Shown here: positions 3,436-51,291 of the stretch, piece after piece
Position numbering within the stretch: position 1 is the stretch's first letter
Layout of the letters: each line of letters opens with the position of its first letter
From: a virus
Lineage: Duplodnaviria; Caudoviricetes
Direction: 5' to 3' (one strand)
DNA: 64,000 nucleotides
Virus record (IMG/VR): IMGVR_UViG_3300029288_000066
Span: 164,887-228,886 of that record
Position numbers and translations under genes: made by a program
The notes under the pieces: generated by a model
What the model saw: the letters and a program-made list of their open reading frames with translations, nothing else
The model's database searches: none
Told to the model about the DNA's origin: nothing

Positions 3436-4195
3436 AAAACCTTGAGTTTACAGGCTTTAGTGAGCCAACTTTCGGAGGATTATTGTTTCCCCGCCTTATC
3501 CACATGCCTTGCGACACGTACCGACTCAATCTCGACTGCTATGGGCAATCACTCCTATCGTCACAGACTACTCTACTGCTACTTTAACCACAACAAGGGC
3601 GCCCCCCTGCAATAGCCTTTCACAATAATCCGTTGAACTTTGACATCCAACGTCCCCAATTCATCTTGCGATGTCAGGGTCTGAGAGACCTGTCGTCCAT
3701 AACGCCAGCGGAACTTTTTCTTTGCTTCTATTGTTTTTAGAGAATAGAGCGGTTTTTACCCCGCACCAAAGTATGTGTTTAATTAAGGATGTGCCGCTGG
3801 AACAGCTTCGCCACTTTTGGCGACGAAATACTATACACCTTCTGCGCCCTTTTGCATCAGTACGCTTTCATCTCCGAATCCTTCCTCCATCGCTGGAAGC
3901 GAGAATCCCAAAAACAAATGGAACACGCTCTATAGTCTGCTAAACGTTGAACATTATTCCTCGGTTTTTCCTGTTACCCCTTTCGGAGCTCAATCGCCTT
4001 AACACAATTTAGACGATATTCCACTCAGCAGTTGCCCTTGCAGAACGTACTAACCTATTGTATGCTCGACTTCCTTGTGAAAGCGGCGAGTTATAAACCC
4101 CACCTTTAATCCTGGTCACCCAGTTTATTTTGCCTGCCCCTTTCGGAACAGACCTTGACAACCCGTAGGCCACCAGTGACAGCACACTGCCACAA
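3436..4195 (-). ncRNA. large structured RNA, GOLLD-like
   Basis: About 760 nt, GC-richer than its flanks, no credible ORF, many GAAA/GCAA-capped hairpins on the minus strand. TATCTTTG promoter (~4250) and boxA (~4215) upstream; terminator 3395-3430 downstream. Family assignment is from size, context and recalled 3' motifs. Confidence 0.6.
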
Positions 4196-4312
4196 ATATT
4201 TTCAATATTTTAAAGAACTTTAAATCTTGGTTACTCACCTATAATGAGCAAAGATATATAATCTAAAAACAAAAAGCAACTTTTTTCTTGTTTTTTTTTA
4301 TTTTTTTTTAAA

Positions 4313-4397
4313 AAGACGTAAACAGGCCGCTCAACCACCTACCCTTGCTTTCTTCCGAACCTGGGGGAGTTCAGTAGGAGCTGGCCTATTACGCTTT
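4313..4397 (-). ncRNA. ffs: small SRP RNA (4.5S)
   Basis: Long hairpin containing CAGGTTCGGAAGAAAGCA, matching the Ffh-binding domain IV consensus CAGGUCCGGAAGGAAGCAG. Confidence 0.8.
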
Positions 4398-6838: not shown

Positions 6839-6968
6839 AATTACTGTTTTTTAATTTATGAAAATGTAGTAAAATAAAATAGTAAAATCAAGTTTTATTT
6901 TGGCAAATGTTTTAAGTTCGATTTGTATTATCGCTTTTTTTTGCTATATTTATAGAAAAGATGAAATT

Positions 6969-7823
6969 ATGAATAAATGTTTAAATTGCGGACAGGAAAC
7001 AAATAACAATAAGTTTTGTTCTATTAGTTGCCAACATAGATTCCAAAAAGCATCACAAATTGATAAAAGACTTGGTATGTTTTTAGACTTTACAATTAAA
7101 TGCAATAAGTGTGGAAAGGAGTTTGTAGTTAATGAACGTGAAAATTTATTTCCACAAAAAGAAAAATATTATTGTAGTAGAAGTTGTGCAAATAAAAGAA
7201 TTCATAGTGAAGAAACTAAGAAAAAGATAAGCAAAAGAATTAAAGAGCTTATAAAAGAAAATCCAGAAAAATATAGCAATGGTGGTTATAATAGCGGTTC
7301 TGAATTACAAAAAAAAAGAGAAAAAATTGTAAAAATAATTTGTAAAAAATGTTTAAAAGAATTTTGTGTGCCTTATGGTAGAAGAAATAGGCAATTTTGT
7401 TGTAAAACGTGTGCATCTAATTGGATGAAAGGTTCTTCTAAATCTCAATTAACTGGACTGTTATCAGTACAAGCACAAAAGGATATGAGAAGAAGTAAAA
7501 ATGAGATATATTTTTCTGAATTATGTAAAAATCACTTCAATAAGGTTTTAACCAACGAACCAATATTTAATGGTTGGGATGCAGATGTTATTATTGAAGA
7601 CATTAAAATGGCAGTTTTGTGGAATGGTAAGTGGCATTATGAAAAGATAACTAAAAAACACTCTGTCAAACAAGTTCAAAATAGAGATAAAATAAGAATT
7701 AAAGAAATTAAAGAATATGGATATAATTACTACATCATTAAAGATATGGGAAGACAAAATAAAAAATTTGTTGAGGATAAATTTAACACATTTATAAAAA
7801 TGTTGGGAACAAAAAATTCTTAG
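6969..7823 (+). CDS. Zn-finger plus PD-(D/E)xK/Vsr-like endonuclease (homing-type)
   Basis: Repeated CxxC...FCSxSC fingers; C-terminal DADVII...WNGKWHY...RDKIR. Confidence 0.7.
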   Translation: MNKCLNCGQETNNNKFCSISCQHRFQKASQIDKRLGMFLDFTIKCNKCGKEFVVNERENLFPQKEKYYCSRSCANKRIHSEETKKKISKRIKELIKENPEKYSNGGYNSGSELQKKREKIVKIICKKCLKEFCVPYGRRNRQFCCKTCASNWMKGSSKSQLTGLLSVQAQKDMRRSKNEIYFSELCKNHFNKVLTNEPIFNGWDADVIIEDIKMAVLWNGKWHYEKITKKHSVKQVQNRDKIRIKEIKEYGYNYYIIKDMGRQNKKFVEDKFNTFIKMLGTKNS

Positions 7824-8280: not shown

Positions 8281-8437
8281 TTAGGGAATTCTCGAACTAA
8301 GCTTTTTCTTTTCCGCCCCATTTAGCCACTCTGGTACTCCTCGATTTTAATTTTCTTTGTCGAGGAGGATGGATTCGAACCACCGTAGGCTTACGCCAGC
8401 AGATTCCTTTCGAAGTATCTTAATTTGTTACCACTAA
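8281..8437 (-). ncRNA. Y-RNA-like (YrlA-type) RNA with circularly permuted tRNA-Tyr-like domain
   Basis: Shared AGTGG...ATACTTCG...TTCCCT stem. The tRNA 3' half precedes the 5' half; acceptor stem CGAGGAG/CTCCTCG is closed by an A-rich linker. Confidence 0.75.
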
Positions 8438-8444
8438 TTTTTTG

Positions 8445-8518
8445 TGGAGATGACTGGATTCCAACCAGCGACTTCTTGATTGCAGGTCAAGCGCTCTAAG
8501 CAGCTGAGCTACATCCCC
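8445..8518 (-). tRNA. tRNA-Ala (TGC), C19:G56 and C33 variant
   Basis: G3:U70; CTTGA-CCTGCAA-TCAAG. Confidence 0.8.
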
Positions 8519-8601
8519 CATTGTTTTCCTATTAACTCTTCCTGCACTAAGGTGCGCAGGTTAACAGAACTTCGGAAAAGCTTCTATACTTGTTCAGTTA
8601 G

Positions 8602-8678
8602 TCGGGCATGCAAGATTCGAACTTGCGAGTTCTCCACATCCCAAATGTGGCGGGGTGGCCTGACTCCCCAAATGCCCG
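8602..8678 (-). tRNA. tRNA-Pro (TGG)
   Basis: CCACA-TTTGGGA-TGTGG. Confidence 0.88.
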
Positions 8679-8747
8679 AATTTACAACCTTTGTTTGCAG
8701 AATAGTTTTTGAATTTTAATTTTTTAAACTATTTATAATAAAATACG

Positions 8748-9449
8748 ATGAAACCTTTATTTACAGAAGAAGAGTTCAACAATGCAAAAAGCGAAGATAA
8801 ACTTCCTTGCGAATGCTATTATTGTAAAAAACAATTTTTTCCCTATAAAAAAGCAATTAAACATGAATTAAAAAGTAATAGTGGGTGGATAAAGTTTTGT
8901 TCAATTGCATGTCATAATAGATATAAGTTCGGAGAATCTGTTTTAACAAAATGCTCTAATTGTAATAAACATATATATAAAGACCCTTCACAAATAAAAA
9001 AATCTAAAACTGGAAATATCTTTTGCTCAAAGTCTTGCGCTGCCACATATAATAACAAGCATAAAATTCATGGCACTCGTAGGTCAAAGCTTGAAATTTA
9101 TTTAGAAAAACAATTAACGCTTTTATACCCAAGTTTAGAGATTCTTTATAACAACAAAGAAACAATAAACTCTGAACTTGATATTTATATTCCTTCTTTT
9201 AAACTTGCTTTTGAACTTAATGGAATCTTTCATTACGAACCAATATTTGGTGATGAAAAACTAGGTAAAATCCAAAACAATGATGAGCGCAAATTTCAAG
9301 CTTGTTTAGAAAACCAAATTGAACTCGTTTTAATTGATGTTTCTTCTTTAGGATATTTTAAGCCTAAAAATGCTGATAAATACCTTAATATTATTATCAA
9401 CATTATAAATAAAAAATTAGGGAATTCTTTGCAGAATCTTTTTTTATAG
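8748..9449 (+). CDS. Zn-finger plus PD-(D/E)xK endonuclease (homing-type), antisense to the tRNA operon
   Basis: ELDIYIP...FELNGIFHY; paralogue of 28266..28940. Confidence 0.75.
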   Translation: MKPLFTEEEFNNAKSEDKLPCECYYCKKQFFPYKKAIKHELKSNSGWIKFCSIACHNRYKFGESVLTKCSNCNKHIYKDPSQIKKSKTGNIFCSKSCAATYNNKHKIHGTRRSKLEIYLEKQLTLLYPSLEILYNNKETINSELDIYIPSFKLAFELNGIFHYEPIFGDEKLGKIQNNDERKFQACLENQIELVLIDVSSLGYFKPKNADKYLNIIINIINKKLGNSLQNLFL

Positions 9450-9567
9450 CGTTCTAGCCATTAAACTATCCCCACAATTTTACTTTATTCTCTTTTGTGT
9501 AGGGAGCGAGATTCGAACTCACATTTCTGTCTTGGAAGGACGATGAAATTCTACGATTTGCCACTAA
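9417..9567 (-). ncRNA. Y-RNA-like RNA with permuted tRNA-Gly(TCC)-like domain
   Basis: Same terminal stem; GTC-CTTCCAA-GAC loop, T arm, acceptor GTGGGGA/TCCCTAC, D arm placed last. Confidence 0.72.
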
Positions 9568-9572
9568 TTTTG

Positions 9573-9648
9573 TCGGAGTAACTGGATTCGAACCAGCGGA
9601 AATCTTGCACCCCATGCAAGCCCATATAGCCATCTGTGGAACACCCCG
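9573..9648 (-). tRNA. tRNA-Pro (GGG)
   Basis: CTTGC-ATGGGGT-GCAAG. Confidence 0.85.
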
Positions 9649-9782
9649 ATAAAATGACCAACGTCAAGATTTTTGAGTTGCTAATGCTTTTGCTACATCA
9701 CCGTTAATGCTGCTTTGTCGACTCATCGGCAATAAGGCCGCTATTCACATTAATTCTTCCTCTCATATTAATCAGTCATTTG

Positions 9783-9857
9783 TCTAGGTGGCAAGATTCG
9801 AACTTGCGGACCGATGTTTCCAAAACACCGTAGTATAGCCATCTGCAATACACCTAG
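9783..9857 (-). tRNA. tRNA-Pro (TGG)
   Basis: GGTGT-TTTGGAA-ACATC. Confidence 0.82.
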
Positions 9858-9874
9858 TTTTTTATTTTTCACTG

Positions 9875-9960
9875 TTGCGGGTGAGGGACTCGAACCCCCG
9901 CTTTCCTTTTGGGAAAGTCCAGCTTATGAGACTGGCGAGATGCCGCTTCTCTAACCCGCA
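9875..9960 (-). tRNA. tRNA-Met (CAT) with long variable arm
   Basis: CCAGT-CTCATAA-GCTGG followed by CTTTCC-CAAAA-GGAAAG. Confidence 0.8.
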
Positions 9961-9967
9961 TTTCAGT

Positions 9968-10038
9968 GGGAATAGCAGGATTCGAACCTACAATTCACAG
10001 ATTTACAGTCTGCTAAGCAACCGCTGCTCAATACTCCC
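9968..10038 (-). tRNA. tRNA-Tyr (GTA) with short variable loop
   Basis: GCAGA-CTGTAAA-TCTGT; 5-nt variable region. Confidence 0.8.
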
Positions 10039-10154
10039 AATTTCTCCAGCTCAAGGGTCAGTCTATCCCTTTTCTTTTTAACGCTATATTAAGGAGACTT
10101 CTATGTGTTCAACAACGCTCTCATATGCAGCTAGAGGAAGATTTTCAAAATTTG

Positions 10155-10236
10155 TCGGAAGGGTAGGAGTTGAACCTACATAGCCAGAGGCGACTGTTTT
10201 ACAGACAGCTGATTTAGCCGATTTACCATCCTGCCG
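10155..10236 (-). tRNA. tRNA-Tyr (GTA), C1:G72
   Basis: GCTGT-CTGTAAA-ACAGT; variable arm present. Confidence 0.8.
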
Positions 10237-10243
10237 AATTAAA

Positions 10244-10387
10244 TCAGGGAAAGGGCGGAAGAGTTTTTTTTAAATTCCCCCTTGTTAAATTTGTTTTTCT
10301 TAATTGGCGGGGGAAGTTGGATTTGAACCAACATTGTTTGTTTTTCACACAAATGTTTACCGAAGTATCTCTTTCTATTGCCACTGA
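10244..10387 (-). ncRNA. Y-RNA-like RNA with Phe(GAA)-like anticodon arm, T arm and acceptor stem
   Basis: Same terminal stem; TTTGT-GTGAAAA-ACAAA, GTTGG-TTCAAAT-CCAAC, TTCCCCC-GCCA pairing with downstream GGGGGAA; no D arm. Confidence 0.7.
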
Positions 10388-10391
10388 TTTG

Positions 10392-10466
10392 TGGAGCTTA
10401 ACGTATTCGAAACGTTCTGCTTTTCTCATTGCAAATGAGATGACCACCCTAGCAGTCCCAAGCCCC
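10392..10466 (-). tRNA. tRNA-Ala (TGC)
   Basis: G3:U70; TCTCA-TTTGCAA-TGAGA. Confidence 0.8.
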
Positions 10467-10476
10467 ATAGTTGGGA

Positions 10477-10988
10477 TTATAATAATCCCAGGTTTTTTAA
10501 TCTTTCGATTTCAATTTCATTTCTTTTTATTTTTTTTCTTAACAGAGTGTTATCGAAATCCAGTAGAAATGATTCTGGAATTTTGATATTTTTTTCTTTG
10601 AATTGGTTCAGCACTTCATCTTTTGTAAAGCTACATTCTACAATTCCGTCTGTCCATTGGTCTAGCCACAGACCCCAACTTTTTTTCCCTATTACAACAC
10701 CCTTTAAAATATTAGGATGACAGCTTTTTAGGTTATGAATTTTGATTTCGCCATTTTCGAATTTTCTATAACAAAATTTTCCTTCATCTGAATTTAAATC
10801 GAATTCCACTTTCACATCTGAGCCGCAGAATGTAAGAATTCCGCTTCTGTATGATGTTAAAAAGAAGGTGAAGATTTCATTAAATTTTTCAGAATATCTT
10901 TGAAGTTTTCTATGAATTCTACTTCCAGATTTCTCTTTTGTTTTTTCAATTCTTTTTAATCTTTCTTGGATTAAGTCGCTTTTCGCAT
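10477..10988 (-). CDS. hypothetical protein, probably frameshifted in an A-run just after the ATG
   Basis: The frame of 10477..10815 is open upstream to ~10985, but the ATG is one base out of frame. Confidence 0.5.
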
Positions 10989-11024
10989 GGTTGTTCCCTC
11001 CATATTAATTGTTTAAAAATAAAA

Positions 11025-11091
11025 TCAGGGAAAAATTTACTGAGAGAGTTTTTTGATTGGAAGTCGAAGTATCTCTACTGATTGCCACTGA
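11025..11091 (-). ncRNA. minimal Y-RNA-like stem without tRNA domain
   Basis: TCAGTGGCAA...AGATACTTCG...AAAACTCTC...TTCCCTGA. Confidence 0.65.
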
Positions 11092-11098
11092 TTTTTTG

Positions 11099-11465: not shown

Positions 11466-12326
11466 TTAATTTAATTTCTTTTCGTAATATTTAATCCATT
11501 TTCTTACTGCATTATCAGAAACTCCATATTTTCTTCCGACTGCACTATAATTAGATTTTTTTAATTCTTCAACAAGTTCTATATAAGAAGGTCTCTGTGT
11601 TTTTCTTTGCCTAATTTCATCACACGATTTACATCTTTTCATACCTTTACCTATTTCATTTCCACATGCACAATAATTTTTATTTTTTTCTTTAATTTCT
11701 TTTATTTTATCAAAATATTGCTTTCCTATATTCTTTCCTCCATTAGTATTAAATGTAGCCGCACAATTTGGACAAACTATTCTTAAATTTTCCAATCTAT
11801 TATCATTATGATGCCCATTTTTATGGTCAAGAATCAAACTAATTTTTTCCCCATTCCAAACTTCTCCTTGTCCACATTTCTCGCATATTTTTTGTTTAAG
11901 TTCTTCTTTATATAATCTTTCTTTTAAATTTGTCGTATGATTATATGTTGAATTTTCAACTAATATGTCGGACAAATCAAATTTTCCAGAAACAAATCTA
12001 TTACCTGAAATGCCAAAATTAAAATGTGAAATGTCAATGTTGTATTTCTCTATATATTTTTTAATAGTATTTCTGTTACCACAATGAGTTGTAATTCCCA
12101 ATCTCCTAGCTACATCAGTATAGCTTTTAGACTCACCCACAACTTTTTTAAATTTTATTTCATTGTATTTTTCATTCCTACATTCAAGATTAAGAGCAAA
12201 ATGTTGTGCTTTACCTCTAATAGATGTTTTTGTCCTTTTTAATTCATTTGCACAAAATTCACATCCGTAGATTGGATAATTCTTTTTCAAGAATTCCACG
12301 TCTTTTTCTGTCCATTCTTTTTTCAT
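11466..12326 (-). CDS. HNH homing endonuclease
   Basis: CEKC...LDHKNGHHNDNRLENLRIVCPNC; paralogue of 26407..27183. Confidence 0.85.
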   Translation of the reverse strand: MKKEWTEKDVEFLKKNYPIYGCEFCANELKRTKTSIRGKAQHFALNLECRNEKYNEIKFKKVVGESKSYTDVARRLGITTHCGNRNTIKKYIEKYNIDISHFNFGISGNRFVSGKFDLSDILVENSTYNHTTNLKERLYKEELKQKICEKCGQGEVWNGEKISLILDHKNGHHNDNRLENLRIVCPNCAATFNTNGGKNIGKQYFDKIKEIKEKNKNYCACGNEIGKGMKRCKSCDEIRQRKTQRPSYIELVEELKKSNYSAVGRKYGVSDNAVRKWIKYYEKKLN

Positions 12327-12708: not shown

Positions 12709-12750
12709 AAAAAAAGAAACCCGAATCTTTTTGGGATTCGGGTCTGTTTA
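12709..12750 (-). terminator. attenuator terminator of tRNA operon A
   Basis: GACCCGAATC-loop-GATTCGGGTT plus U-tract, between the leader ORF and the first tRNA. Confidence 0.85.
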
Positions 12751-12775
12751 TTCCTTTTATAAGTTTACAACTTCA

Positions 12776-12886
12776 TTAAGGTTTAGTATTAAACATACCC
12801 GTCCCACATCCATAATCGGCATCAATCGCTGATGGATAGCCGCCCATCGGAGTTACTTCTAAACGATATGTAAAATTCTGTTTCAC
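12776..12886 (-). CDS. leader peptide, 36 aa: MKQNFTYRLEVTPMGGYPSAIDADYGCGTGMFNTKP
   Basis: GTG start. Rich in P/M/G/Y/A/D. Its 3' part is complementary to the terminator 5' arm. Confidence 0.8.
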   Translation of the reverse strand: MKQNFTYRLEVTPMGGYPSAIDADYGCGTGMFNTKP

Positions 12887-31619: not shown

Positions 31620-31718
31620 AGTTTTTTGTTTTTTATACAATATAAAAAAAAATCCCCCCAAAATCAAGAGATTTCAGAGGAATTTTCAGAAACGAAAAGA
31701 AACGAAACGAAATTTTTG

Positions 31719-31792
31719 CCTCCCAGACAGGACTCGAACCTGCAACCAGCGGTACTAGAAGCCGCAGCTCTACCAAATTGAGCTACAAGGAG
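31719..31792 (-). tRNA. tRNA with CUA anticodon (amber suppressor)
   Basis: Normal D and T arms; GCGGC-TTCTAGT-ACCGC places CTA at positions 34-36. Confidence 0.75.
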
Positions 31793-33869: not shown

Positions 33870-36209
33870 TTAATACTTTAATCCAGTAGTAGAATCATAC
33901 AATCTTTCATTTTCCAATTTGTAAACTCCAAAGATATCATCATTCGCTTGGTGAAGGGATTCATAAGTTTTTTTTCTTACACTTATACAATTTTGTAAAA
34001 CAACGCCCCTTATTTTTTTAAACTCAATGCCCTTAACATCTCTCTCTTTATAATCCACAACACCTTGTAACTCATTAAATAACTTTACAAAATCACTCCA
34101 ATTCCCTTCGTTTTTCCCAACATAAATCGTATGAGATTCTGGGTCCCCTTGAATAAATTTGTATTTCCCTAAATTTTTAAAATTGCCATAAAGAATATCG
34201 TCTATTAAATTTTGTTCATCATTTACTTTCCCTTGCTCTATATGCTTGGACAATCCATAAAAATAACGCTCGCATCTTTCATGAAATTCTATTTCTGTCA
34301 TTGGTGATATTTTGCTTAAAATATCGTTTCTAAAGCTATTAGACATCATGTTGGCGTAAACCATATTACAATCATAATAATCGGATTCTTCGTCTTTGTA
34401 AACGAACAGAAACGTGTTTATCATACCAAATTCCCCATGTCTATTCCCCCTCCCATTTGATTGAACCACGCTTGATGGTGGTGCCGCATCTCTATATATA
34501 GATGGGAAGCTTATGTCTACCCCTGCCTCTATTACCTGGGTGCTTACTACTAATATTTTTTTATTATCCTGCAGGTCTTGCTTAATTTTATTTAATATTT
34601 GAATTCTATCATGGGGACTAATGTGGGAGTTTAGCAAATACACCTTCTCAAAAAGAGAACCGCTTTGCTTGAACTTATAATACATTTTTTGGGAGGTCTT
34701 GATGGTGTTTAAAATCAGTAGCGTTGCAACATTGGATTTTCTTACCGTTTCATATAAAGATTCTGAATCTAATTCTCCAATAAAATTTATAGTATATCTA
34801 TTAAATACTTCATCGTCGAAAACATCATTATTTAGGAGCTCAATTGGTGGATTTATGTTTTTTATTAGCTTTTTGAAGTTTGCGTTTGCTACGGTATTTA
34901 AATCAACATTCATATTTGGCATTGTTGCAGTGCTTATAATCGCATAACAATCATTCTTCTCGCAAAAATAAGCAAGAAGCTGTACAAATATTGCATATTG
35001 AGAAGGAGAAGTCGCCTGGTACTCATCAATTAAAAAGATTCTTTTTTTATAATTTTTAAGCCTCATTAGCTTACTCGTAGAATTATTCGCTAATGTTTCA
35101 AAAAGCTGATTAAACGTTGTCACTATAAATGGATGGTCAAAACAACTTTCTGAAAAAGCATATTCAGAAATTCCATCCAAATCTGTTCCTTCTTTTAACA
35201 TAGATTGAAGCTTCTCACTTACATCGGAAGAGCTGGTGTAATTTAAAGTCTGTATTTTTAAATCCTTATTTATGATTTCTACTGTTTGGTCAATTATGGA
35301 TAAAAATGGCAGCGAGTAAATAATATCATGCTCGTAGCTAAACTCCTTTAATATTTCAATTGCTAACTGAAGCATCATAAATGTTTTTCCACTTCCAGTG
35401 GGTGCCGTTAATGTAAAAACTCTTTGTTGGTTTATACAATTAAGCAATTTTTCTACTGCTTGCTTTCTTATTTTGTTCCTTGCTTCATTTAATTTTGTAT
35501 CGGCCTTAAAGTGCAAAAATATCCACTCAAGATTATTCTCAAGAACATAAGCATATCTCTTTCTTGACTTCTCTCTATAACAACTCTTATTTCCAGAAGC
35601 GTCTTTTCTGTCTCCATAAACTAATTCTCCATAAGTTTGAATAGTGTCAAAATAATGTTTTATAGACTCATCTTCCCATGATTTCAAATCAGACACTCTC
35701 CCAAATGATTTATAAAAGTTATTATTTTCCAAATCATCCACGAAATTCAATTTACAATTTAATAAGTCAAAGTTGTCTTCAAAAAATGTATTCACATGCT
35801 CCGTCATATTGATTGTTTTCAAATATGAAACCATTTTATCCCACTCCTCTTGATTGAATAGTTCGTCTATATTTCTCAAATATCCATGGTGCCCAACTAT
35901 AATATTTATCAAAATAATAAGTATACTTTCGTAATTATTATCATTAATGAATTTAAATCTGCCTTCTATTTCATCCTTATTGTTTACAAATGCATTAATG
36001 AGATAATATGATGAGATATATGAATGATTTGAATATCCATCAAAGGGCAATCCTACAATCTTTCTCTGAAAGTTGTCGTTCATTTTCCCAACATCGTGGA
36101 ATGATGCCGCAAGCAATTTTAAATCATCTAAATCACAATTGCTCAACACCCCCCTTGTGTGGTCTATCAACAATTTTGTTGGATGGGATTTTGGATTATA
36201 TCCTGACAT
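33870..36209 (-). CDS. cas3: Cas3 HD nuclease-helicase
   Basis: HDVGK, APTGSGKT, DEYQ, STAT, STQVIEAGVDI, QSNGRGNR. Confidence 0.93.
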   Translation of the reverse strand: MSGYNPKSHPTKLLIDHTRGVLSNCDLDDLKLLAASFHDVGKMNDNFQRKIVGLPFDGYSNHSYISSYYLINAFVNNKDEIEGRFKFINDNNYESILIILINIIVGHHGYLRNIDELFNQEEWDKMVSYLKTINMTEHVNTFFEDNFDLLNCKLNFVDDLENNNFYKSFGRVSDLKSWEDESIKHYFDTIQTYGELVYGDRKDASGNKSCYREKSRKRYAYVLENNLEWIFLHFKADTKLNEARNKIRKQAVEKLLNCINQQRVFTLTAPTGSGKTFMMLQLAIEILKEFSYEHDIIYSLPFLSIIDQTVEIINKDLKIQTLNYTSSSDVSEKLQSMLKEGTDLDGISEYAFSESCFDHPFIVTTFNQLFETLANNSTSKLMRLKNYKKRIFLIDEYQATSPSQYAIFVQLLAYFCEKNDCYAIISTATMPNMNVDLNTVANANFKKLIKNINPPIELLNNDVFDDEVFNRYTINFIGELDSESLYETVRKSNVATLLILNTIKTSQKMYYKFKQSGSLFEKVYLLNSHISPHDRIQILNKIKQDLQDNKKILVVSTQVIEAGVDISFPSIYRDAAPPSSVVQSNGRGNRHGEFGMINTFLFVYKDEESDYYDCNMVYANMMSNSFRNDILSKISPMTEIEFHERCERYFYGLSKHIEQGKVNDEQNLIDDILYGNFKNLGKYKFIQGDPESHTIYVGKNEGNWSDFVKLFNELQGVVDYKERDVKGIEFKKIRGVVLQNCISVRKKTYESLHQANDDIFGVYKLENERLYDSTTGLKY

Positions 36210-36252
36210 AAATCTTTTCTTTATATAAATTATACGGCTTAAATTACAATTT

Positions 36253-37468
36253 GTTACAGATTACTTAAAGTTTTTAGGTGTGAACAATAATAGCGCAACA
36301 GTGTCACAATAAAGCAGGATTGTAATTACAAATAATTTACAAATGATGAACAATAACATTTTCTTGTACAGTGAATGCACCATTTTAATTGCAAGTAGCT
36401 TGTAAATAACAAACGGCAACAAACATTCCTTCTGATAAATATAATCAATTTTAATTACAAACAATTTATAGATAATAAACAGCTTTTACTGAAAACGAAA
36501 CTGGTGTAGCTCCATTATAATTACAAATAATTTATAGATGATATGCCAATGTTTTCATTGGATTAACGGCTTCGCTGGATTGTAATTACAGACAATTTAT
36601 AGAAGATAAGTAACAAGACACTATTTTTTATTATTGTGCAATACATTATAATTACGAGTAATTTATAAATGATGAGCATCAGCAACACTATATAGTCAAG
36701 CAGGCACTTGGTTGTAATTACAAATAGTTTGTAAGCGATGAGCAATTGGTAGCACAGCTACAGGATATTTCTTTGAGTTGTAATTACAAGTAGTTTGTAG
36801 GTGATGAATAACAGCGCAATTCCATACACGAAATATTCAGCAGTTGTAATTACAAGTAGTTTGTAGGTGATGAACAACACAAACCGCAAAATATGTAACA
36901 ATCCAATCGTTGTAATTACAAACAATTTGTAGGTGATGAACAACTTATTGCAAATTTACTATTTATAACAACACATTGTAATTACAAACAGCTTGTAGGT
37001 GATGAACAACCCTGAGAGCGAAGCAATACGAGACGGCGGGTTGTAATTACAAACAGCTTGTAGGTGATGAACAACTGTCTAGTTGTATCTTTAAATATAT
37101 TCTCGTTGTAATTACAAACAGCTTGTAGGTGATGAACAACCAATTCCTTTTAATTTAACCCACTCCAATAGTTGTAATTACAAACAGCTTGTAGGTGATG
37201 AACAACATAAGAATGTAAATATTGTGATGGATTCAGGTTGTAATTACAAACAGCTTGTAGGTGATGAACAACAATGTTGTGTTCTCCAAATCAATTTACA
37301 AAGTTGTAATTACAAACAGCTTGTAGGTGATGAACAACAAACCAGCATGATTCAGGTGTCAATGCATGTTGTAATTACAAACAGCTTGTAGGTGATGAAC
37401 AACTTTTGAATTGGTTGGATAACCAGCCTTTCGTTGTAATTACAAACAGCTTGTAGGTGATGAACAAC
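36253..37468 (-). CRISPR. CRISPR array: 19 repeats (36 nt, GTTGTTCATCACCTACAAGCTGTTTGTAATTACAAC) and 18 spacers, mostly 29-30 nt
   Basis: Seven identical repeats at 37040-37468 with progressive decay toward cas3; AT-rich leader at 37469-37548. Confidence 0.95.
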
Positions 37469-37548
37469 AGAACATATCAGACTGGCTGCTATCATCCATT
37501 TTTAATATAAAAATGAAATAAAAAAATGATATAAAACTCTATTTATTG

Positions 37549-38265
37549 TTAAATAAATTCTATATTTTCATTTTCTACTTTGTGATAGTTTCCATGAGCT
37601 TTAAGTGTTTCACAATTATCATTAAAATAAATGGTTTTAAAACTTTTTAAATCATGAGCCAAATAAGATTCGCTTCTAGTGGGTATATCATCAGTTCTTA
37701 TGTGCTCAAATGATTGGACATCATCAAGAACAATATTTGTGCAAATAGCTGAGGTCTCAAAATTCCCATTACATGGCTTGGCATCATATGCCCCTATATA
37801 TTTTATTTCTGCCATAAAATTTGCCATTCCCATATATGGAGGAAAGATAAATTCTTCATTTTTAATATTCTCAACAAAATTATTCAACATCGTCTTTATG
37901 TCAAAATCATCTTCTTCATATAATACATAGATACTGTAACTAACATCCACAAGCCTTTCAAACTTTGACGGCGTGTACATCGGTCTGTCAGGTTTTACAA
38001 GATTTCCATGATTGTAACCATATTCTGACCAATATTTTATTTGGAACGGTTTCTTTAATTTAACAGAATATCGAATTTTTTCTGTAAGAATTTTATAGAG
38101 ATTGTTCGATTTCATAAACTCTTTTTCCACGCCAATCACCGCACAGATAATGCCTATTAAAGCTGATTTCGGCATAATGCAAAATGTGCTTGGATTGTTG
38201 TTGCTTTGTGGACGCTGGAACGCACCCAATGCACTATTAATATTAAATACAATTGCTTTTTCCAT
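37549..38265 (-). CDS. cas5: Cas5
   Basis: GAFQRPQSN...PKSALIGIICAVIG...PYMGMANF. Confidence 0.88.
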   Translation of the reverse strand: MEKAIVFNINSALGAFQRPQSNNNPSTFCIMPKSALIGIICAVIGVEKEFMKSNNLYKILTEKIRYSVKLKKPFQIKYWSEYGYNHGNLVKPDRPMYTPSKFERLVDVSYSIYVLYEEDDFDIKTMLNNFVENIKNEEFIFPPYMGMANFMAEIKYIGAYDAKPCNGNFETSAICTNIVLDDVQSFEHIRTDDIPTRSESYLAHDLKSFKTIYFNDNCETLKAHGNYHKVENENIEFI

Positions 38266-38266
38266 A

Positions 38267-39262
38267 TTAATCAGAGCTTACAAGATTTATAAGTGCGTCA
38301 AATGGGTCAACAATTTTACAATTTTCTGGAAGACATGAAAAATGCTTTTGAACAAATTCTTCATCATCACAATATATTGTAACATTATCCACAACATTTT
38401 TTACTGTTTTTTCAATTTCCACTTTTAATGGAGAAAAATCTAACTCATAGTCATTCTTACAATAAATCTCATTTAATGAACTTTTTGGGACTAAATTAAA
38501 TGGTATAAAATCTTTTCTTAATGTTCTTCCCAAACAGCCTTCTTTCGTTAATTCTGTTGGATGTTCAACAACAATAAAAGCGATTGGAGATTGTCCTTGC
38601 TTCGACCTTGAATTTGCTGAGCTTATCCCATCCCAAATTGCTGTTAACATAAGCGCAACATCTTTGTCTGATGCTTTGTTTAACTTTGCCACCTGAGCAG
38701 AAAACCTCCCTTTGATACAAAACAACCCATATTTAAGAAATGAATCTCTTCCCATGCTTCCTTGCCCCTTTTTTATATCTGATGGGAAAATACTTGTTAT
38801 TCCTCTATTTATAATGTTTTTCCCATGAATTACTTCATTAATGCTTTCGTTTTCCGCATCAAATTGTAAAGCCCCAGTTATACTTGCTTTGTAATCTTTT
38901 GATGTTAATGCCGCCCCGAATATTCTGACATCTGAAAATTCTTTTAAAAGAATATCCATAGCCTTTTCTGAAGAAAATTTTTTGTCGATTTCATAGCCCT
39001 TATCTTTACAAAACGCAACAAATCTTGCGGCTGCCCCAGAAAGCTTTTTTCCATCTTGTTCGATGGATTCTCTATCGTAAAAATAGAAAACTTGTTCCCC
39101 AACGCTTTCAAGCTTGTCTCTCCCATATCTTTTGATTCTCAAATCTGAAACGACAGCTCTTTTGGTTGCTTCGTTATATCTCTGTTCCCCTTCGTTATCT
39201 GGGTCTCCATTTGGAGTACAATTCACAGTTTCATAAATTAAATAAATACTTTTGTTTTTCAT
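38267..39262 (-). CDS. cas7: Cas7 (Csh2/Csd2 type)
   Basis: PNGDPD...VSDLRIKR...DVRIFG...SRSK. Confidence 0.9.
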   Translation of the reverse strand: MKNKSIYLIYETVNCTPNGDPDNEGEQRYNEATKRAVVSDLRIKRYGRDKLESVGEQVFYFYDRESIEQDGKKLSGAAARFVAFCKDKGYEIDKKFSSEKAMDILLKEFSDVRIFGAALTSKDYKASITGALQFDAENESINEVIHGKNIINRGITSIFPSDIKKGQGSMGRDSFLKYGLFCIKGRFSAQVAKLNKASDKDVALMLTAIWDGISSANSRSKQGQSPIAFIVVEHPTELTKEGCLGRTLRKDFIPFNLVPKSSLNEIYCKNDYELDFSPLKVEIEKTVKNVVDNVTIYCDDEEFVQKHFSCLPENCKIVDPFDALINLVSSD

Positions 39263-39302
39263 GATTAATTTTATTTTATAACGTTAAATTTATTGCGTGA
39301 TT

Positions 39303-40976: not shown

Positions 40977-40985
40977 TTACAAAAT

Positions 40986-48607: not shown

Positions 48608-50203
48608 CTAAAATTCAATGTAGTTTTTGATTGTATTTATCAATGCTTTCTTGTCTTGTTCAAGAACTTTCATGATGTCAAAAACCTTTTCAGAGAAACC
48701 AGCAATTGCACAAACTTGTGATTCGGGGAATTGCATAGTTCCGTATCCATTCAAGTCAAAAGAGTAAATGTAAGGATTACATTTGAATCTTTCTTTGTAT
48801 GCCTTGAATTCTGCCGCTGGAGTATAGTATCCCATCCATCCTTGCATATCTGAAAGAATAATAACTCTTGAGTATGCTTTATTCATAGTTCCAAATATTG
48901 CTTTGAAGTTGGTTCCACCTCCATGGAAGTGAATGCTTTTAGCAATCGTCAAGATGCTATCTGCAGGATTAAGATTTTGGTATCTTGCAGATGTATCAAA
49001 TGTCAAAAAGTCTGCATTGTTACTTCTTACCAATATTGCTGCGAACAATCCTCCAATTTGTGATGGTTTTCCATTCATAGAACTAGACGTATCAAGAACT
49101 ACAAGTGTTTCCCCTTCAAACACTGGAACATTTGAGCATGAAATATCAACAGCATGGTTCAACGCCAACATAACTTGTCTAACTTCTTTCGAACCATTTG
49201 ACATAGCTTCAATTTCTTTCATAGCCGTATCAAATCTAAATGGCAATACCAATGAGTTTCTGATAGCTCTTTCTTCAACAAGCAATTCACATGCTCTCTT
49301 AACTTGGTCAGGTGCTTGTTCGACAATGTTCCTCAAGTTTCTTAACAAGTTAAAGTATGGCATTTTACCGCTGTTAAGCATTTCTTTCCATACGTCAGCC
49401 TTCAATTGAGACTTTTCAGCTTCACTTGACGCTTCTTGTCCAGCTTTTGACATCTTAGCTTCTGTGGTTGCAGTGTTTTTCAACATACCAGCCATTAAAG
49501 CGTCCAATGCTCCCAACTTAACAGTTGCTTTTCTTTGTCTCTTTACGGGAGCTAAAGCTTCATTAACACTTGCAATTTTTGCAGTATTTTTCTTAGCATT
49601 TCTGCTCAAACTTTTTAATTTAGCTTCAAGCAAAGAAACGTAATCTTCTTTTGCTATTTCAACAAAACCGTTGTGTTCAACTGGAACAGGGTGAACAAGG
49701 TTAACAACGTCAACCAAAGACACTTCTTTATTTTCCATTTTGTACTTAGCCAATTGGTAAGCATCAAATTTGTTGAATGCTTCAGCAAATCCTTTTTGCA
49801 TTGCCTTTGACAATGATTTATTTTTCTTACTGAAGTAGTAAGCAATAGTTTCTACCATGTCATCTGGTCTACGAACAATAGCCTTGTAGAAATTTTTAGC
49901 CCAGCTTTCACCAGACAATTTCTTTGCAAGTTCTGCAGCCAATACATGAGTAATAGAACGCATTCCAAATTCTTGTCTTGCGTAAACTGCTGCCTTTGCT
50001 GCAAACAAAGGGTTAACACGGTTAATTACTTCTTGTAACCTTTTAAGGCCATCTGATGCCTTTTCGTAGAATTTATCTTCAACGAAAGAGGTTAAAAGAA
50101 TTGATACCAATTCTAACTCTGCTGATTGTTTGTAAGCTTCGCCACCAGCTAAGTTATCAGTTTTGGTCACTGATTTTGGGGTTGTTTTGCTAAATTTTGC
50201 CAT
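48608..50203 (-). CDS. rsr: Ro60/Rsr TROVE-vWA RNA-binding protein
   Basis: NLAGGEAY, YQLAKY, LLRNLRN, VLPFRF, vWA DTSSSM, GGT, ILSDMQ, GFSEKVF. Confidence 0.92.
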   Translation of the reverse strand: MAKFSKTTPKSVTKTDNLAGGEAYKQSAELELVSILLTSFVEDKFYEKASDGLKRLQEVINRVNPLFAAKAAVYARQEFGMRSITHVLAAELAKKLSGESWAKNFYKAIVRRPDDMVETIAYYFSKKNKSLSKAMQKGFAEAFNKFDAYQLAKYKMENKEVSLVDVVNLVHPVPVEHNGFVEIAKEDYVSLLEAKLKSLSRNAKKNTAKIASVNEALAPVKRQRKATVKLGALDALMAGMLKNTATTEAKMSKAGQEASSEAEKSQLKADVWKEMLNSGKMPYFNLLRNLRNIVEQAPDQVKRACELLVEERAIRNSLVLPFRFDTAMKEIEAMSNGSKEVRQVMLALNHAVDISCSNVPVFEGETLVVLDTSSSMNGKPSQIGGLFAAILVRSNNADFLTFDTSARYQNLNPADSILTIAKSIHFHGGGTNFKAIFGTMNKAYSRVIILSDMQGWMGYYTPAAEFKAYKERFKCNPYIYSFDLNGYGTMQFPESQVCAIAGFSEKVFDIMKVLEQDKKALINTIKNYIEF

Positions 50204-50238: not shown

Positions 50239-50283
50239 AAAAAAAAAAGGGCATTACGTATTTCTACATAGTGCCCTGTATTG
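50239..50283 (-). terminator. intrinsic terminator between the Y-like RNAs and rsr
   Basis: AGGGCACTATGTA-loop-TACGTAATGCCCT plus long U-tract. Confidence 0.8.
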
Positions 50284-50353
50284 TGAGGGAAAATTAAAAA
50301 GCAGGTTTTTTCAAAATACCAATTTTCGATGAACTGCTCTTAGTTGCCACTCA
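50284..50353 (-). ncRNA. minimal Y-RNA-like stem
   Basis: TGAGTGGCAA...CATCG...TTCCCTCA. Confidence 0.65.
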
Positions 50354-50363
50354 ATATCGTTAA

Positions 50364-50429
50364 TACAGGGAATTTTTAAATAGAGTTTTTTCTTTTTTGG
50401 ACGAAGTATCCCTATTTATTGCCACTATA
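50364..50429 (-). ncRNA. minimal Y-RNA-like stem
   Basis: TAGTGGCAA...GATACTTCG...TTCCCTG; boxA and ECF-type promoter directly upstream. Confidence 0.68.
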
Positions 50430-50494
50430 ATATCATTATGTTTAAAGAACTTAATATTGCTTATACGCAATAATTTCAAAAAGGTTACAAAAAT

Positions 50495-50617
50495 AAAAGG
50501 GAAAGTTTTGAAGAGTGTAATCTCCCACGAGGGGAGAAATCACGCCCTGACCTTTCGGAGGGCACGATTGGAGTCAAACCAATGTAACCGAAGTAACTCT
50601 ATCAATGGCCACTTTTT
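50495..50617 (-). ncRNA. YrlA-type Y RNA with T arm, closed acceptor-like stem and D-like hairpin
   Basis: Shared stem; ATTGG-TTTGACT-CCAAT, CGTGCCCT..AGGGCGTG, TCTCCC/GGGAGA; boxA upstream. Confidence 0.72.
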
Positions 50618-50775
50618 ATTTTAAATATCTTTAAGAACGTTTCTGTTTAGCATTTTATTGCCTAACATTATAAATATGCACAAAAATATTAAATTCGAAA
50701 ATAAAAAGCAAGTTTTTTCACTTTTTTTAAAAATTTTTTTTATTTGCCTGATTATCAGCAACAATAAAAATAAAA

Positions 50776-51291
50776 TTAAATTAAAATATTATCTTTTTTT
50801 AAAGAATATACGAAATCTTCATACAAAACTTCGATAATTTCCAGTAGAGAAAAGTCAGATTTTACCTTAATGCCTTCTCTTAAAATTTCATCTCCGTCAA
50901 CTATTGTTGGGTCAAGTACAACTTTTAAATTGTCTACACTTTGCGTTTTTCCTATACTATCGTAAGAACAAAGCTCTGATTTAACATTTATCTTCAGAAA
51001 ATTTTCTGTTGTAATTTCTGCATTTTTAAATATTCTTAAATAATCATATCGCTCTGCCATCTTTCCAGCACTAATCAAAGACCTTCCTACCTCATACTCT
51101 TCGCAACAATATAAATTAACAAACTCTCTGATGTCATATAGAACATGCACTAAACCCCCAAGAGTCAATCCTGCTTCTAATTTAATAGGACAATTAAGAG
51201 ATGACATTAAAAACTCTTTCATTGAGCCATCTCCGATATCCAACTTCTCCCCATCAAAATAAATTGACTTATTTGCTTTTATCTCCAGCAT
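50776..51291 (-). CDS. hypothetical protein
   Basis: ORF overlapping the end of the Clp gene. Confidence 0.6.
   Translation of the reverse strand: MLEIKANKSIYFDGEKLDIGDGSMKEFLMSSLNCPIKLEAGLTLGGLVHVLYDIREFVNLYCCEEYEVGRSLISAGKMAERYDYLRIFKNAEITTENFLKINVKSELCSYDSIGKTQSVDNLKVVLDPTIVDGDEILREGIKVKSDFSLLEIIEVLYEDFVYSLKKDNILI

What the first reader, a model, noticed from the sequence alone, without database searches (positions are those of the whole stretch)
8281..11091. Y-RNA-like cassettes carrying different circularly permuted tRNAs inside the tRNA operon
Seen: four elements (8281-8437, 9417-9567, 10244-10387, 11025-11091) share a terminal helix AGUGG/CCCU with one bulged U, an internal loop and an (A/U)C(U/A)UCG motif. 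The same stem occurs three more times next to rsr. Cargo differs: a nearly complete permuted tRNA-Tyr whose anticodon loop is replaced by the stem; a permuted tRNA-Gly retaining a UCC loop; a Phe-GAA arm plus T arm, acceptor and internal CCA; and no cargo. Established: bacterial YrlA RNAs join an Rsr-binding stem to a tRNA-like domain with a closed acceptor end. Inference: these are recent, independent tRNA captures (the A-rich linkers look like inter-tRNA spacers). They could be Rsr-protected decoys for tRNA-targeting defences or tethers for tRNA-binding enzymes, co-induced by the attenuator.
Basis: partly seen in the sequence, partly recalled or inferred. Interest (0 to 1): 0.86.

Follow-up and report, generated by a model that had tools for sequence, protein, structure and literature searches.

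The report
Phage Y RNAs carrying rearranged tRNAs
A large uncultured phage carries eight copies of a small RNA "handle" that always travels with the RNA-binding ring protein Ro60/Rsr. Five copies sit among its tRNA genes, and the same handle is grafted onto tRNA bodies at four different positions, a new variant of the known bacterial Y RNAs.

Summary
An eighth lies 25 kb outside the window, beside tRNA-Leu. The shared 5' signature occurs 8 times against 0.09 expected. The two-helix scaffold with a bulged U covaries strongly: 90% paired against 42-57% in slid controls.

The scaffold tracks Rsr. It lies upstream of rsr on the same strand in nine related phage loci and eight of the ten bacterial rsr loci searched. 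All four contigs found by motif alone also encode a TROVE protein.

The cargos are real tRNA rearrangements with different break points. E2 re-joins in silico into a full tRNA-Gly(UCC). E1 has the classical YrlA topology. In E3 the scaffold replaces the D arm and an encoded CCA is kept. In E8 the scaffold replaces the acceptor stem.

Orthologues of five elements exist in a 372-kb relative with compensatory changes, so they are old conserved paralogues, not recent captures. None matches Rfam YrlA, and the published GNCGAA motif is only partly matched.

Verdict: Rsr-partner Y RNAs of a divergent YrlA-like subfamily, a new variant of a known kind. Function (tether, decoy or chargeable tRNA body) is untested. 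The scan has noted similar Ro60/handle-RNA sets in Felix O1-type phages.

The parts
8281..8438 (-). E1: scaffold plus a YrlA-topology tRNA-like body. Order: anticodon-stem 3' strand, long variable arm, T arm, closed 8-bp acceptor, D arm, anticodon-stem 5' strand. There is no anticodon loop. It lies between tRNA-Ala(UGC) and tRNA-Gly(GCC).
   Evidence: An orthologue in G001 has 43 predicted pairs: 39 unchanged, 2 changed on one side, 1 compensatory, 1 broken.
9417..9568 (-). E2: scaffold plus a complete circularly permuted tRNA-Gly(UCC), broken between positions 26 and 27. Order: anticodon arm, variable loop, T arm, acceptor 3' strand, 21-nt A-rich linker, acceptor 5' strand, D arm.
   Evidence: The halves re-joined in silico are called a 76-nt tRNA-Gly(tcc) by ARAGORN, as are those of the G001 orthologue. 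Of 34 predicted pairs, 4 are compensatory and none broken. The anticodon arm is identical in both phages.
10244..10388 (-). E3: scaffold in place of the D arm. Order: UUCG mini-hairpin, anticodon arm (GAA here, GUA in the orthologue), T arm, 7-bp acceptor followed by an encoded GCCA, 23-nt linker after the encoded GCCA, acceptor 5' strand. It lies directly 5' of tRNA-Tyr(GUA).
   Evidence: Rfam tRNA partial hit at 10314-10373, model positions 6-65, 22.8 bits. The orthologue keeps ACCA and has 3 compensatory pairs and none broken.
11021..11095 (-). E4: scaffold only. Its apical region has a 2-bp stem closing a CUUCCAA heptaloop, the same heptamer as the E2 anticodon loop.
   Evidence: CM R1 scores 73.5 bits, but this copy was in the training set. 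The orthologue shows AGAG/CUCU changed to AGGG/CCCU.
50492..50619 (-). R1: scaffold plus a T-arm-like hairpin and two further hairpins. It is the first of three copies upstream of rsr.
   Evidence: CM R1 scores 37.6 bits, E=1e-5, and this copy was not in the training set. The orthologue upstream of rsr in L001 has 2 compensatory pairs.
50361..50432 (-). R2: scaffold only.
   Evidence: CM R1 scores 46.2 bits, E=1e-7, and this copy was not in the training set.
50280..50357 (-). R3: scaffold plus a small apical hairpin. It uses the UUCAUCGAA form of the junction motif.
   Evidence: CM R1 scores 65.6 bits, but this copy was in the training set.
50239..50277 (-). Terminator-like hairpin followed by U10, between R3 and the rsr start codon.
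   Evidence: -15.6 kcal/mol, z-score -4.6. Related loci have a comparable hairpin plus U-run before rsr.
48608..50203 (-). rsr: a Ro60-like TROVE plus vWA protein of 531 aa.
   Evidence: Pfam TROVE at 5.4e-21. The best solved relative is the Thermus phage phiLo Ro60, PDB 9L5Y/9KOP, at 8e-22.

Best explanation
These are eight paralogous Y RNAs of a divergent YrlA-like subfamily, the RNA partners of the phage's own Ro60/Rsr protein.

All share one handle. The 5' and 3' ends pair into a helix with a bulged U. An internal loop follows, then a second helix, then a U(A/U)C(U/A)UCG junction whose CG sits where YrlA has GNCGAA. I infer that this handle is the Rsr-binding module.

The apical end of the handle carries interchangeable cargo: nothing, small hairpins, or a tRNA body. 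The handle is joined to the tRNA body at different places: the anticodon loop (E1), the 26/27 hinge (E2), the D-arm position (E3) or the acceptor stem (E8).

Five copies occupy tRNA-like slots in tRNA operons, 1-8 nt from neighbouring tRNAs. I infer that they are co-transcribed with those tRNAs and released when RNase P and the 3' tRNA processing enzymes trim the neighbours.

E1-E3 have 7-8-bp acceptor stems closed by A-rich linkers. By analogy with M. smegmatis YrlA, I predict they are opened by RNase P and end in CCA. That would give two-piece RNAs held together by the handle.

The tRNA bodies would then link Rsr to proteins that recognise particular tRNAs, or compete with tRNAs for those proteins. 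Candidates are processing, modification and repair enzymes and nucleases, within a phage that invests heavily in its own tRNA pool and encodes RtcB.

Shown here: the sequence family, its structure, its linkage to rsr and the cargo topologies. Inferred: Rsr binding, processing and the tether or competitor role.
For: Family and structure:
- 8 copies against 0.09 expected by chance.
- Covariation in 11 short forms: 89% paired against 36-60% in slid controls.
- Covariation in 30 CM matches, 19 of them untrained: 90% paired against 42-57%, covariation score 0.645 against <=0.18. This includes a clade-wide G-C to A-U swap next to the bulged U.

Rsr linkage:
- Three copies lie directly upstream of rsr.
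- The same motif lies upstream of rsr on the same strand in L001-L007, L009 and L012.
- All 4 contigs found by motif alone encode TROVE, while only 63 of 50,697 phage records hold an Rsr relative.
- CM hits lie just upstream of rsr in eight of the ten bacterial (MAG) rsr loci that had upstream sequence to search (E from 3e-7 to 0.33; Saprospiraceae, Verrucomicrobia, SAR202).
- The closest solved homologue binds two Y-like RNAs encoded upstream of its gene (PMC12135203).

Cargo:
- Canonical cargo-bearing copies in relatives match RF02553 over its full length at 37-47 bits, E as low as 9e-8.
- Topologies are established.
- Orthologues keep their stems: 20 pairs changed but still pairing, 1 broken.
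- Synteny with the tRNA neighbours is kept in G001.

Context:
- RtcB is encoded in the genome.
Against: - No binding, transcript or end-mapping data exist for this uncultured phage.
- The window's own elements give no RF02553 hit even at E<=10.
- RF02553 partial hits of 24-32 bits also arise at ordinary tRNA-tRNA junctions, so sub-threshold hits are weak evidence.
- GNCGAAN0-1G is not matched. Only CG is invariant, and CGAA occurs in 2 of 8 copies.
- E1-E4 and E8 lie 38-75 kb from rsr, outside the published within-4-kb criterion.
- The D and T stem sequences that are nearly invariant in YrlA are not kept in E1-E3.
- Alignment A3 was fitted to the model, which inflates its pair counts.
Confidence: 0.72

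Rival explanations
1. Identity-specific decoys. The handle-borne tRNA bodies and anticodon-type heptaloops (Gly UCC, Phe GAA / Tyr GUA, Leu UAA-like) act as competitive inhibitors or sacrificial substrates for host anticodon nucleases or other tRNA-targeting defences. Rsr stabilises them, and RtcB possibly reseals them. This refines the best explanation rather than excluding it.
For: - Anticodon-type 7-nt loops with U33 and a purine at position 37 are kept on E2, E3 and E8 and on relatives.
- The E2 anticodon arm is identical in two phages although its T, D and acceptor arms diverged.
- The E4 apical loop is the same CUUCCAA heptamer.
- The phage carries 54 tRNAs and RtcB.
- Competitive inhibition of an anticodon nuclease was proposed for YrlA in PMC7790460.
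Against: - E1 and the canonical YrlA-type relatives have no anticodon loop.
- The E3 anticodon differs between orthologues (GAA against GUA), and the E8 loop has lost the UAA anticodon seen in the W01 (LR745206.1) counterpart.
- No nuclease is identified and no experiment exists.
Confidence: 0.2
2. Functional rearranged tRNAs. E2, and perhaps E3 and the cr111_1 element, mature into chargeable tRNAs. They would be either two-piece molecules held by the handle after RNase P and CCA processing, or linear tRNAs made after cutting at the handle and ligation by RtcB, as in algal permuted tRNA genes.
For: - E2 and its orthologue re-join into a full cloverleaf tRNA-Gly(UCC).
- E3 and its orthologue keep an encoded NCCA after a 7-bp acceptor while the linker diverges.
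- In crAss-like phage cr111_1 the handle encloses an intact tRNA-Gln(UUG) with CCA, 51.8 bits over the full-length model.
- RtcB is present.
Against: - No bulge-helix-bulge motif or splicing endonuclease is evident.
- The same handle occurs with no cargo in E4, R2 and R3.
- The phage already has a normal tRNA-Gly(UCC).
- The E2 anticodon stem has a C.A mismatch.
- A helix protruding at position 26/27 is unlikely to fit the ribosome (inference).
Confidence: 0.06
3. Processing punctuation unrelated to Rsr. The handle is a leader-trailer stem recognised by an endonuclease such as RNase III or RNase E to cut tRNA operon transcripts, and the tRNA-like inserts are by-products.
For: - The elements sit 1-8 nt from tRNA genes in tRNA-like slots.
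- In cr111_1 the handle flanks a real tRNA.
Against: - Three copies lie outside any tRNA array, directly before rsr, with their own terminator.
- Every contig with the handle has rsr.
- The sequence-specific invariants (AGU-G, U-C-UCG) and the covarying cargo stems exceed what a cleavage stem needs.
Confidence: 0.05
4. Decaying tRNA pseudogenes left by recombination in the arrays, flanked by a selfish repeat and without function.
For: - tRNA arrays with homing-endonuclease-like ORFs are recombination-prone.
- Cargo identity tends to match the neighbouring tRNA: E3 with Tyr, E8 with Leu.
Against: - Stems are kept by compensatory change across phages whose Rsr proteins are 79% identical.
- Unpaired positions differ at 24-37% while only 1 of 139 pairs is broken.
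- The family extends to bacteria.
Confidence: 0.02

Closest known systems
YrlA / YrlB Y RNAs of bacteria and mycobacteriophages (Rfam RF02553; Chen et al. 2014, PMC4201824; Wang et al. 2018, 10.1101/312249)
   Same: - Encoded next to rsr on the same strand, with several per locus.
- The 5' and 3' ends form the protein-binding stem, with a CG-containing motif on the 5' strand just below the cargo.
- E1 has the YrlA order: variable arm, T arm, closed acceptor, D arm.
- Cargo-free copies parallel YrlB.
[quoted passage not shown]
   Different: - No RF02553 hit for the window copies.
- The motif is U(A/U)C(U/A)UCG, not GNCGAAN0-1G.
- The D and T stem sequences are not the invariant YrlA ones.
- Five copies are dispersed in tRNA operons 38-75 kb from rsr.
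- Cargo is attached at four different positions on the tRNA body, and three copies keep an anticodon arm.
Thermus phage phiLo Ro60 with Yrl1/Yrl2 (PMC12135203; PDB 9L5Y, 9KOP)
   Same: - It is the closest solved homologue of this Rsr.
- Short stem-bulge-stem RNAs are encoded in tandem just upstream of the gene.
- It is a phage system that relies on host partners such as PNPase.
   Different: - The phiLo RNAs are described as stem-bulge-stem RNAs with one or two hairpins; no tRNA-like body or tRNA-array location is mentioned in the passages read.
- Their binding depends on a CGAA motif, which is only partly present here.
Deinococcus radiodurans Yrn1
   Same: A Y RNA whose tRNA-like arms have a different orientation from YrlA. 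This shows that more than one graft topology exists (PMC4201824). E8 and the W01 element resemble this unpermuted type.
   Different: - Yrn1 has a metazoan-like Ro-binding helix.
- It is a single lineage, not several topologies on one handle within one genome.
Circularly permuted tRNA genes of Cyanidioschyzon merolae and other algae (Soma et al. 2007; recalled from memory, not read here)
   Same: The 3' half precedes the 5' half, joined by a linker at the acceptor ends. E2 re-joins into a complete tRNA.
   Different: - The algal precursors are circularised at a bulge-helix-bulge motif by the splicing machinery.
- Here the termini form the Rsr-type handle, no such motif is seen, and maturation is unknown.
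Stable RNAs 'species 1 and 2' in the phage T4 tRNA gene cluster (recalled from memory, not read here)
   Same: Small stable non-tRNA RNAs encoded among phage tRNA genes and released by tRNA processing enzymes.
   Different: T4 has no Rsr, and no sequence or structural relation was tested.

Membership tests
Y RNA, YrlA class (RF02553; Chen 2014) | Encoded within about 4 kb of rsr on the same strand | tested here: met
   R1-R3 lie 80-420 nt upstream of rsr on the same strand. E1-E4 and E8 are on the same strand but 38-75 kb away, so this feature is met for three of the eight copies.
Y RNA, YrlA class (RF02553; Chen 2014) | The 5' and 3' ends pair into a stem with a bulge or internal loop (the Ro60-binding module) | tested here: met
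   Folds. Covariation: 89-90% paired against 36-60% in slid controls.
Y RNA, YrlA class (RF02553; Chen 2014) | GNCGAAN0-1G (or CGAA) motif on the 5' strand | tested here: not met
   The motif is U(A/U)C(U/A)UCG. Only CG is invariant, and CGAA is present in E1 and R3 only. The position matches the YrlA motif in the cmscan alignment.
Y RNA, YrlA class (RF02553; Chen 2014) | tRNA-like domain in the order V, T, closed acceptor, D | tested here: met
   Met for E1, and for E2 with an extra anticodon arm. Not met for E3, E8, E4, R2 and R3.
Y RNA, YrlA class (RF02553; Chen 2014) | Reaches the Rfam gathering score (69 bits) | tested here: not met
   No hit to any window element at E<=10. Canonical copies in relatives score 37-47 bits. 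tRNA-tRNA junctions score 24-32 bits.
Y RNA, YrlA class (RF02553; Chen 2014) | Bound by Rsr/Ro60 | not testable with these tools
   Only genomic co-occurrence is available.
Circularly permuted tRNA gene | The 3' half lies upstream of the 5' half, and a full cloverleaf forms on re-joining | tested here: met
   E2 and its orthologue give ARAGORN tRNA-Gly(tcc), 76 nt. E1 lacks the anticodon loop and E3 lacks the D arm.
Circularly permuted tRNA gene | Bulge-helix-bulge at the precursor termini, and a mature linear tRNA | tested here: not met
   By reading the sequence, the termini form the handle with a single 1-nt bulge and no 3-nt/4-bp/3-nt motif. Mature products cannot be tested.
tRNA (RF00005) | Full-length match to the tRNA covariance model | tested here: not met
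   Only partial matches: E8 scores 30.5 bits over model positions 7-64, and E3 scores 22.8 bits over positions 6-65.

The most novel reading that the evidence does not exclude
The handle is a platform that carries real, chargeable tRNA bodies. E2 is a complete permuted tRNA-Gly(UCC). E3 is a D-armless body with an encoded CCA. The cr111_1 element is an intact tRNA-Gln. After RNase P and CCA processing, or after cutting at the handle and ligation by the phage RtcB, these would become aminoacylatable tRNAs that are made, guarded or delivered as Rsr particles. They would be the first permuted or split tRNA genes in a phage or bacterium, and would give the Y RNA tRNA-like domain a direct role in translation.
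Probability: 0.06. Interest if true: 0.88.

Novelty: new variant of a known kind. Interest (0 to 1): 0.58.

Why it matters
What the tRNA-like domain of bacterial Y RNAs does has been open since 2014. The published YrlA domains are nearly invariant and lack an anticodon loop, which gives few handles for experiments.

This phage lineage offers a natural series. One Rsr-type handle is joined to tRNA bodies of different identity at four different positions (a fifth in cr111_1). Some carry intact anticodon arms or an encoded CCA, and all are conserved by compensatory change.

That makes several questions directly testable:
- Is the domain a stability element, a tether for tRNA-binding enzymes, a nuclease decoy or a chargeable tRNA?
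- Which tRNA faces must stay exposed?

The finding also shows three practical points. Y RNA genes can be dispersed in tRNA operons far from rsr. Rfam YrlA misses this subfamily. tRNA annotations such as tRNA-Gln of cr111_1 can sit inside a Y-type handle.

Tried and rejected
- **Rfam on the window.** Neither gathering nor E<=10 thresholds gave a Y RNA or YrlA hit for any element.
- **RF02553 sub-threshold hits as proof of membership.** Rejected as decisive, because tRNA-tRNA junctions in the same genome score 24-32 bits.
- **CM from cargo-free copies.** Model R1 finds R1 and R2 and many relatives, but it cannot span the roughly 90-nt inserts of E1-E3 and E8, even with filters off. Those were called with an anchored script instead.
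- **IMG/VR scan with a 14-base gapped motif.** Chance matches dominated. Only four new contigs passed the structure filter.
- **Exact search for the E2 anticodon arm.** It found only the one close relative.
- **'Recent capture' test.** Local alignment of the cargos to all 54 phage tRNAs gave only generic T-arm matches, except E8 against tRNA-Leu.
- **Terminator scan.** The simple scan missed the hairpin before rsr because of an internal mismatch. Folding showed it.
- **Literature.** The Chen 2014 supplements and two Wolin reviews are not held.
- **Loose stem regex on the Rsr loci.** The first version was too noisy to use.


Full report
**Setting.** The window is the last 64 kb of a 228,886-bp uncultured phage record. 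The genome has 54 tRNA genes and a tmRNA. The window also holds a GOLLD RNA and an SRP RNA. The tRNA genes and all elements discussed are on the minus strand.

**Observation.**
- The ends pair as N..AG-U-GG with CCCU..N, with the U bulged.
- An internal loop beginning GCAA or GUAA follows.
- A second helix follows, then a junction reading AUACUUCG, UUACUUCG or UUCAUCG.
- On the return strand there is an A-run before the second helix.

The TROVE/Rsr gene is the ORF at 48608-50203(-) (Pfam TROVE 5e-21). Three more copies lie in the 420 nt upstream of it. A regex scan of the whole genome found an eighth copy at genome 139597-139737(-), immediately 5' of tRNA-Leu(UAA) in another tRNA block. The composite 5' signature occurs 8 times, all on one strand. 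The mean in 200 dinucleotide-preserving shuffles was 0.09.

**Is the scaffold a real structure?** I tested this in three steps.
- An alignment of 11 cargo-free copies from this phage and relatives places AGU-G, the U-C-UCG junction and C-CU in invariant columns.
- On that alignment, my two-helix structure has 89% of cells paired, against 36-60% when the 3' partners are slid. Eleven of 17 pairs change on both sides. The pair next to the bulged U is G-C in this clade and A-U in the sister clade.
- A covariance model built from the alignment found R2 and R1, which were not used to build it (46.2 and 37.6 bits). It gave 30 matches across phage and bacterial loci. On these, pairing is 90% against 42-57%, and the covariation score is 0.645 against at most 0.18.

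That last alignment is fitted to the model, so the numbers lean towards the structure. The untrained matches and the slid controls still make chance unlikely.

**Link to Rsr.** Several independent lines connect the handle to rsr.
- Eight IMG/VR loci encode relatives of this Rsr (42-79% identity). In the seven that have upstream DNA, the same AG-N-G-R ... U-A-C-U-U-C-G signature lies upstream of the gene on its strand, usually in two or three copies.
- The same holds in the 635-kb phage LR745206.1 and the crAss-like phage cr111_1.
- A motif scan of IMG/VR that did not use Rsr was mostly noise. Its four structurally valid new contigs all encode a TROVE protein.
- Only 63 of 50,697 phage records have any Rsr relative.
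- The model also hits just upstream of rsr, on the same strand, in bacterial MAG contigs of Saprospiraceae, Verrucomicrobia and SAR202.
- The closest solved homologue is the Ro60 of Thermus phage phiLo. It binds two short stem-bulge-stem RNAs encoded upstream of its gene (PMC12135203).
- Between R3 and rsr there is a hairpin of -15.6 kcal/mol followed by ten U. Relatives have the same arrangement. The upstream copies therefore look like a transcription unit of their own.

**Relation to YrlA.** Rfam holds YrlA as RF02553. No window element matches it even at E<=10. In relatives, copies of this same handle that carry a canonical T / closed-acceptor / D body do match it over its full length at 37-47 bits, below the 69-bit cut-off. 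In the cmscan alignment, the UUCG of the junction falls where the model has its GNCGAA motif.

There is a caveat. The same model scores 24-32 bits at ordinary junctions between adjacent tRNA genes in this genome, so partial sub-threshold hits prove little. I therefore file the elements as a divergent YrlA-like subfamily by architecture and by linkage to rsr, not by the Rfam test.

**Cargo.** Each element carries a different arrangement.
- **E1** has the published YrlA order: anticodon-stem 3' strand, a long variable arm, T arm, an 8-bp acceptor closed by a 15-nt A-rich linker, D arm, anticodon-stem 5' strand. The handle replaces the anticodon loop. The Tyr label rests on the class II variable arm and on anticodon-stem and D-loop resemblance. 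It cannot be tested without an anticodon.
- **E2** contains every part of a tRNA. When its two halves are re-joined in canonical order in silico, ARAGORN calls a 76-nt tRNA-Gly(UCC). It does the same for the orthologue. The break is between positions 26 and 27.
- **E3** runs UUCG mini-hairpin, anticodon arm (GAA), T arm, 7-bp acceptor, GCCA, linker, acceptor 5' strand. The handle stands where the D arm would be (Rfam tRNA partial match).
- **E8** is not permuted. It runs D arm, anticodon arm, long variable arm and T arm in normal order, with the handle in place of the acceptor stem. It matches Rfam tRNA positions 7-64 at 30.5 bits and is about 80% identical to the phage tRNA-Leu(CAA) over 48 nt. 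LR745206.1 has the same type with a true CUUAAAA loop, inside a tRNA array.
- **cr111_1.** The handle encloses an intact, annotated tRNA-Gln(UUG) with CCA.
- **E4, R2 and R3** carry no tRNA body. **R1** carries a T-arm-like hairpin.

One handle is thus joined to tRNA bodies at four different positions in this phage, and at a fifth in cr111_1. Point mutation cannot interconvert these, which supports separate graft events.

**Age.** The 372-kb phage IMGVR_UViG_3300014208_000024 (Rsr 79% identical) has orthologues of E1, E2, E3, E4 and R1 in the same order among the same tRNA neighbours. It also has two canonical YrlA-type copies that this phage lacks.

Across the five pairs, identity is 69-85%. 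Of 139 predicted base pairs, 118 are unchanged, 9 changed on one side, 11 changed on both sides, and 1 is broken. Unpaired columns differ at 24-37% for E1, E2, E3 and R1.

The E2 anticodon arm is identical in both phages although its other arms diverged. E3 keeps N-CCA after the acceptor while the linker diverged, and its anticodon is GAA here and GUA there. These are old paralogues under selection for structure, not recent captures.

Cargo identity tends to match the adjacent tRNA gene: E3 next to tRNA-Tyr, E8 next to tRNA-Leu, and E4 next to tRNA-Gly(UCC) in the relative. This fits origin by local duplication within the arrays. A window cut across two tandem copies of a tRNA gives exactly the permuted order with an inter-tRNA spacer as linker.

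**Mechanism.** The following is inferred, not shown.
- The handle binds Rsr.
- The array copies are co-transcribed with tRNAs and released when the neighbours, 1-8 nt away, are processed.
- E1-E3, with 7-8-bp acceptors, are predicted to be opened by RNase P and to carry CCA, as shown for M. smegmatis YrlA (PMC4201824).
- The tRNA bodies link Rsr to, or compete for, proteins that recognise particular tRNAs.

The phage encodes RtcB, as in the Salmonella rsr-yrlBA-rtcBA operon (PMC7790460). No CCA-adding enzyme was found in this record, which is estimated to be 82% complete.

A decoy role against anticodon nucleases was already suggested for YrlA (PMC7790460). It gains some support here from the retained anticodon loops. 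It is weakened by the loop changes between orthologues and by the loop-less types. A role as chargeable tRNAs is not excluded but is unlikely.

**Novelty.** Already known:
- Y RNAs with tRNA-like domains next to rsr, including in phages.
- Several Y RNAs per locus.

New here:
- A handle variant that Rfam misses.
- Copies dispersed in tRNA operons far from rsr.
- A series of graft topologies on one handle, including a complete permuted tRNA and bodies that keep anticodon arms or CCA.

I found no paper describing this. Earlier notes of this scan describe comparable Ro60 plus handle-RNA sets in Felix O1-type phages, with a different handle. I did not test those.

Noticed in passing
window 3439-3843 (-); also L198 1397-1875: A GOLLD RNA (185.9 bits) lies a few kb from the tRNA operon. 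A second GOLLD sits beside tRNAs and an rsr relative on an Aureispira MAG contig, so GOLLD, tRNA arrays and rsr travel together in this group.
   Followed up: no
window 4310-4397 (-): A phage-encoded bacterial small SRP RNA, 47.2 bits against a gathering score of 40.
   Followed up: no
window 31718-31792 (-): A tRNA with anticodon CUA, called 'Pyl' by ARAGORN. It is an amber suppressor, which may point to TAG recoding in late genes.
   Followed up: no
window 33870-41684 (-): Phage-borne type I CRISPR-Cas genes: Cas3 helicase/HD at 33870-36209 and Cas7 at 38267-39262.
   Followed up: no
window 42255-43448 (+): A TnpB / Cas12f-like OrfB_IS605 gene.
   Followed up: no
window 6900-7823 (+), 8748-9449 (+), 11466-12326 (-): ORFs are interspersed in the tRNA operon, two of them on the opposite strand and one with HNH and HTH domains. 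They look like homing-endonuclease-type insertions. In the relative G001, the slot of the 8748-9449 ORF holds a canonical YrlA-type copy instead.
   Followed up: partly
genome 152112-152170, 155227-155299 and others (outside the window): Method caveat: Rfam YrlA (RF02553) scores 24-32 bits at junctions between adjacent tRNA genes, because T arm, acceptor and D arm of neighbours mimic the YrlA order.
   Followed up: yes
L012 1888-2021 (MT774387.1, crAss-like phage cr111_1): The annotated tRNA-Gln(UUG) is enclosed by the Rsr-type handle. A second, cargo-free handle lies at L012 2257-2328, and both are upstream of a TROVE gene annotated as hypothetical.
   Followed up: partly
window 11047-11063 (-): The E4 apical loop is the heptamer CUUCCAA closed by 2 bp, identical to the E2 Gly(UCC) anticodon loop. 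The G001 orthologue has CUGCAAA at the same place.
   Followed up: partly
window 51269-53326 (-): A ClpB-like double AAA+ ATPase is encoded just upstream of the R1-R3/rsr cluster.
   Followed up: no
window 12710-12798 (-): A terminator-like hairpin at 12745-12717 and a weak Thr_leader hit (E=0.13) lie ahead of the tRNA block that holds E1-E4. This is the attenuator described by other notes of this scan, and I did not test it here.
   Followed up: no
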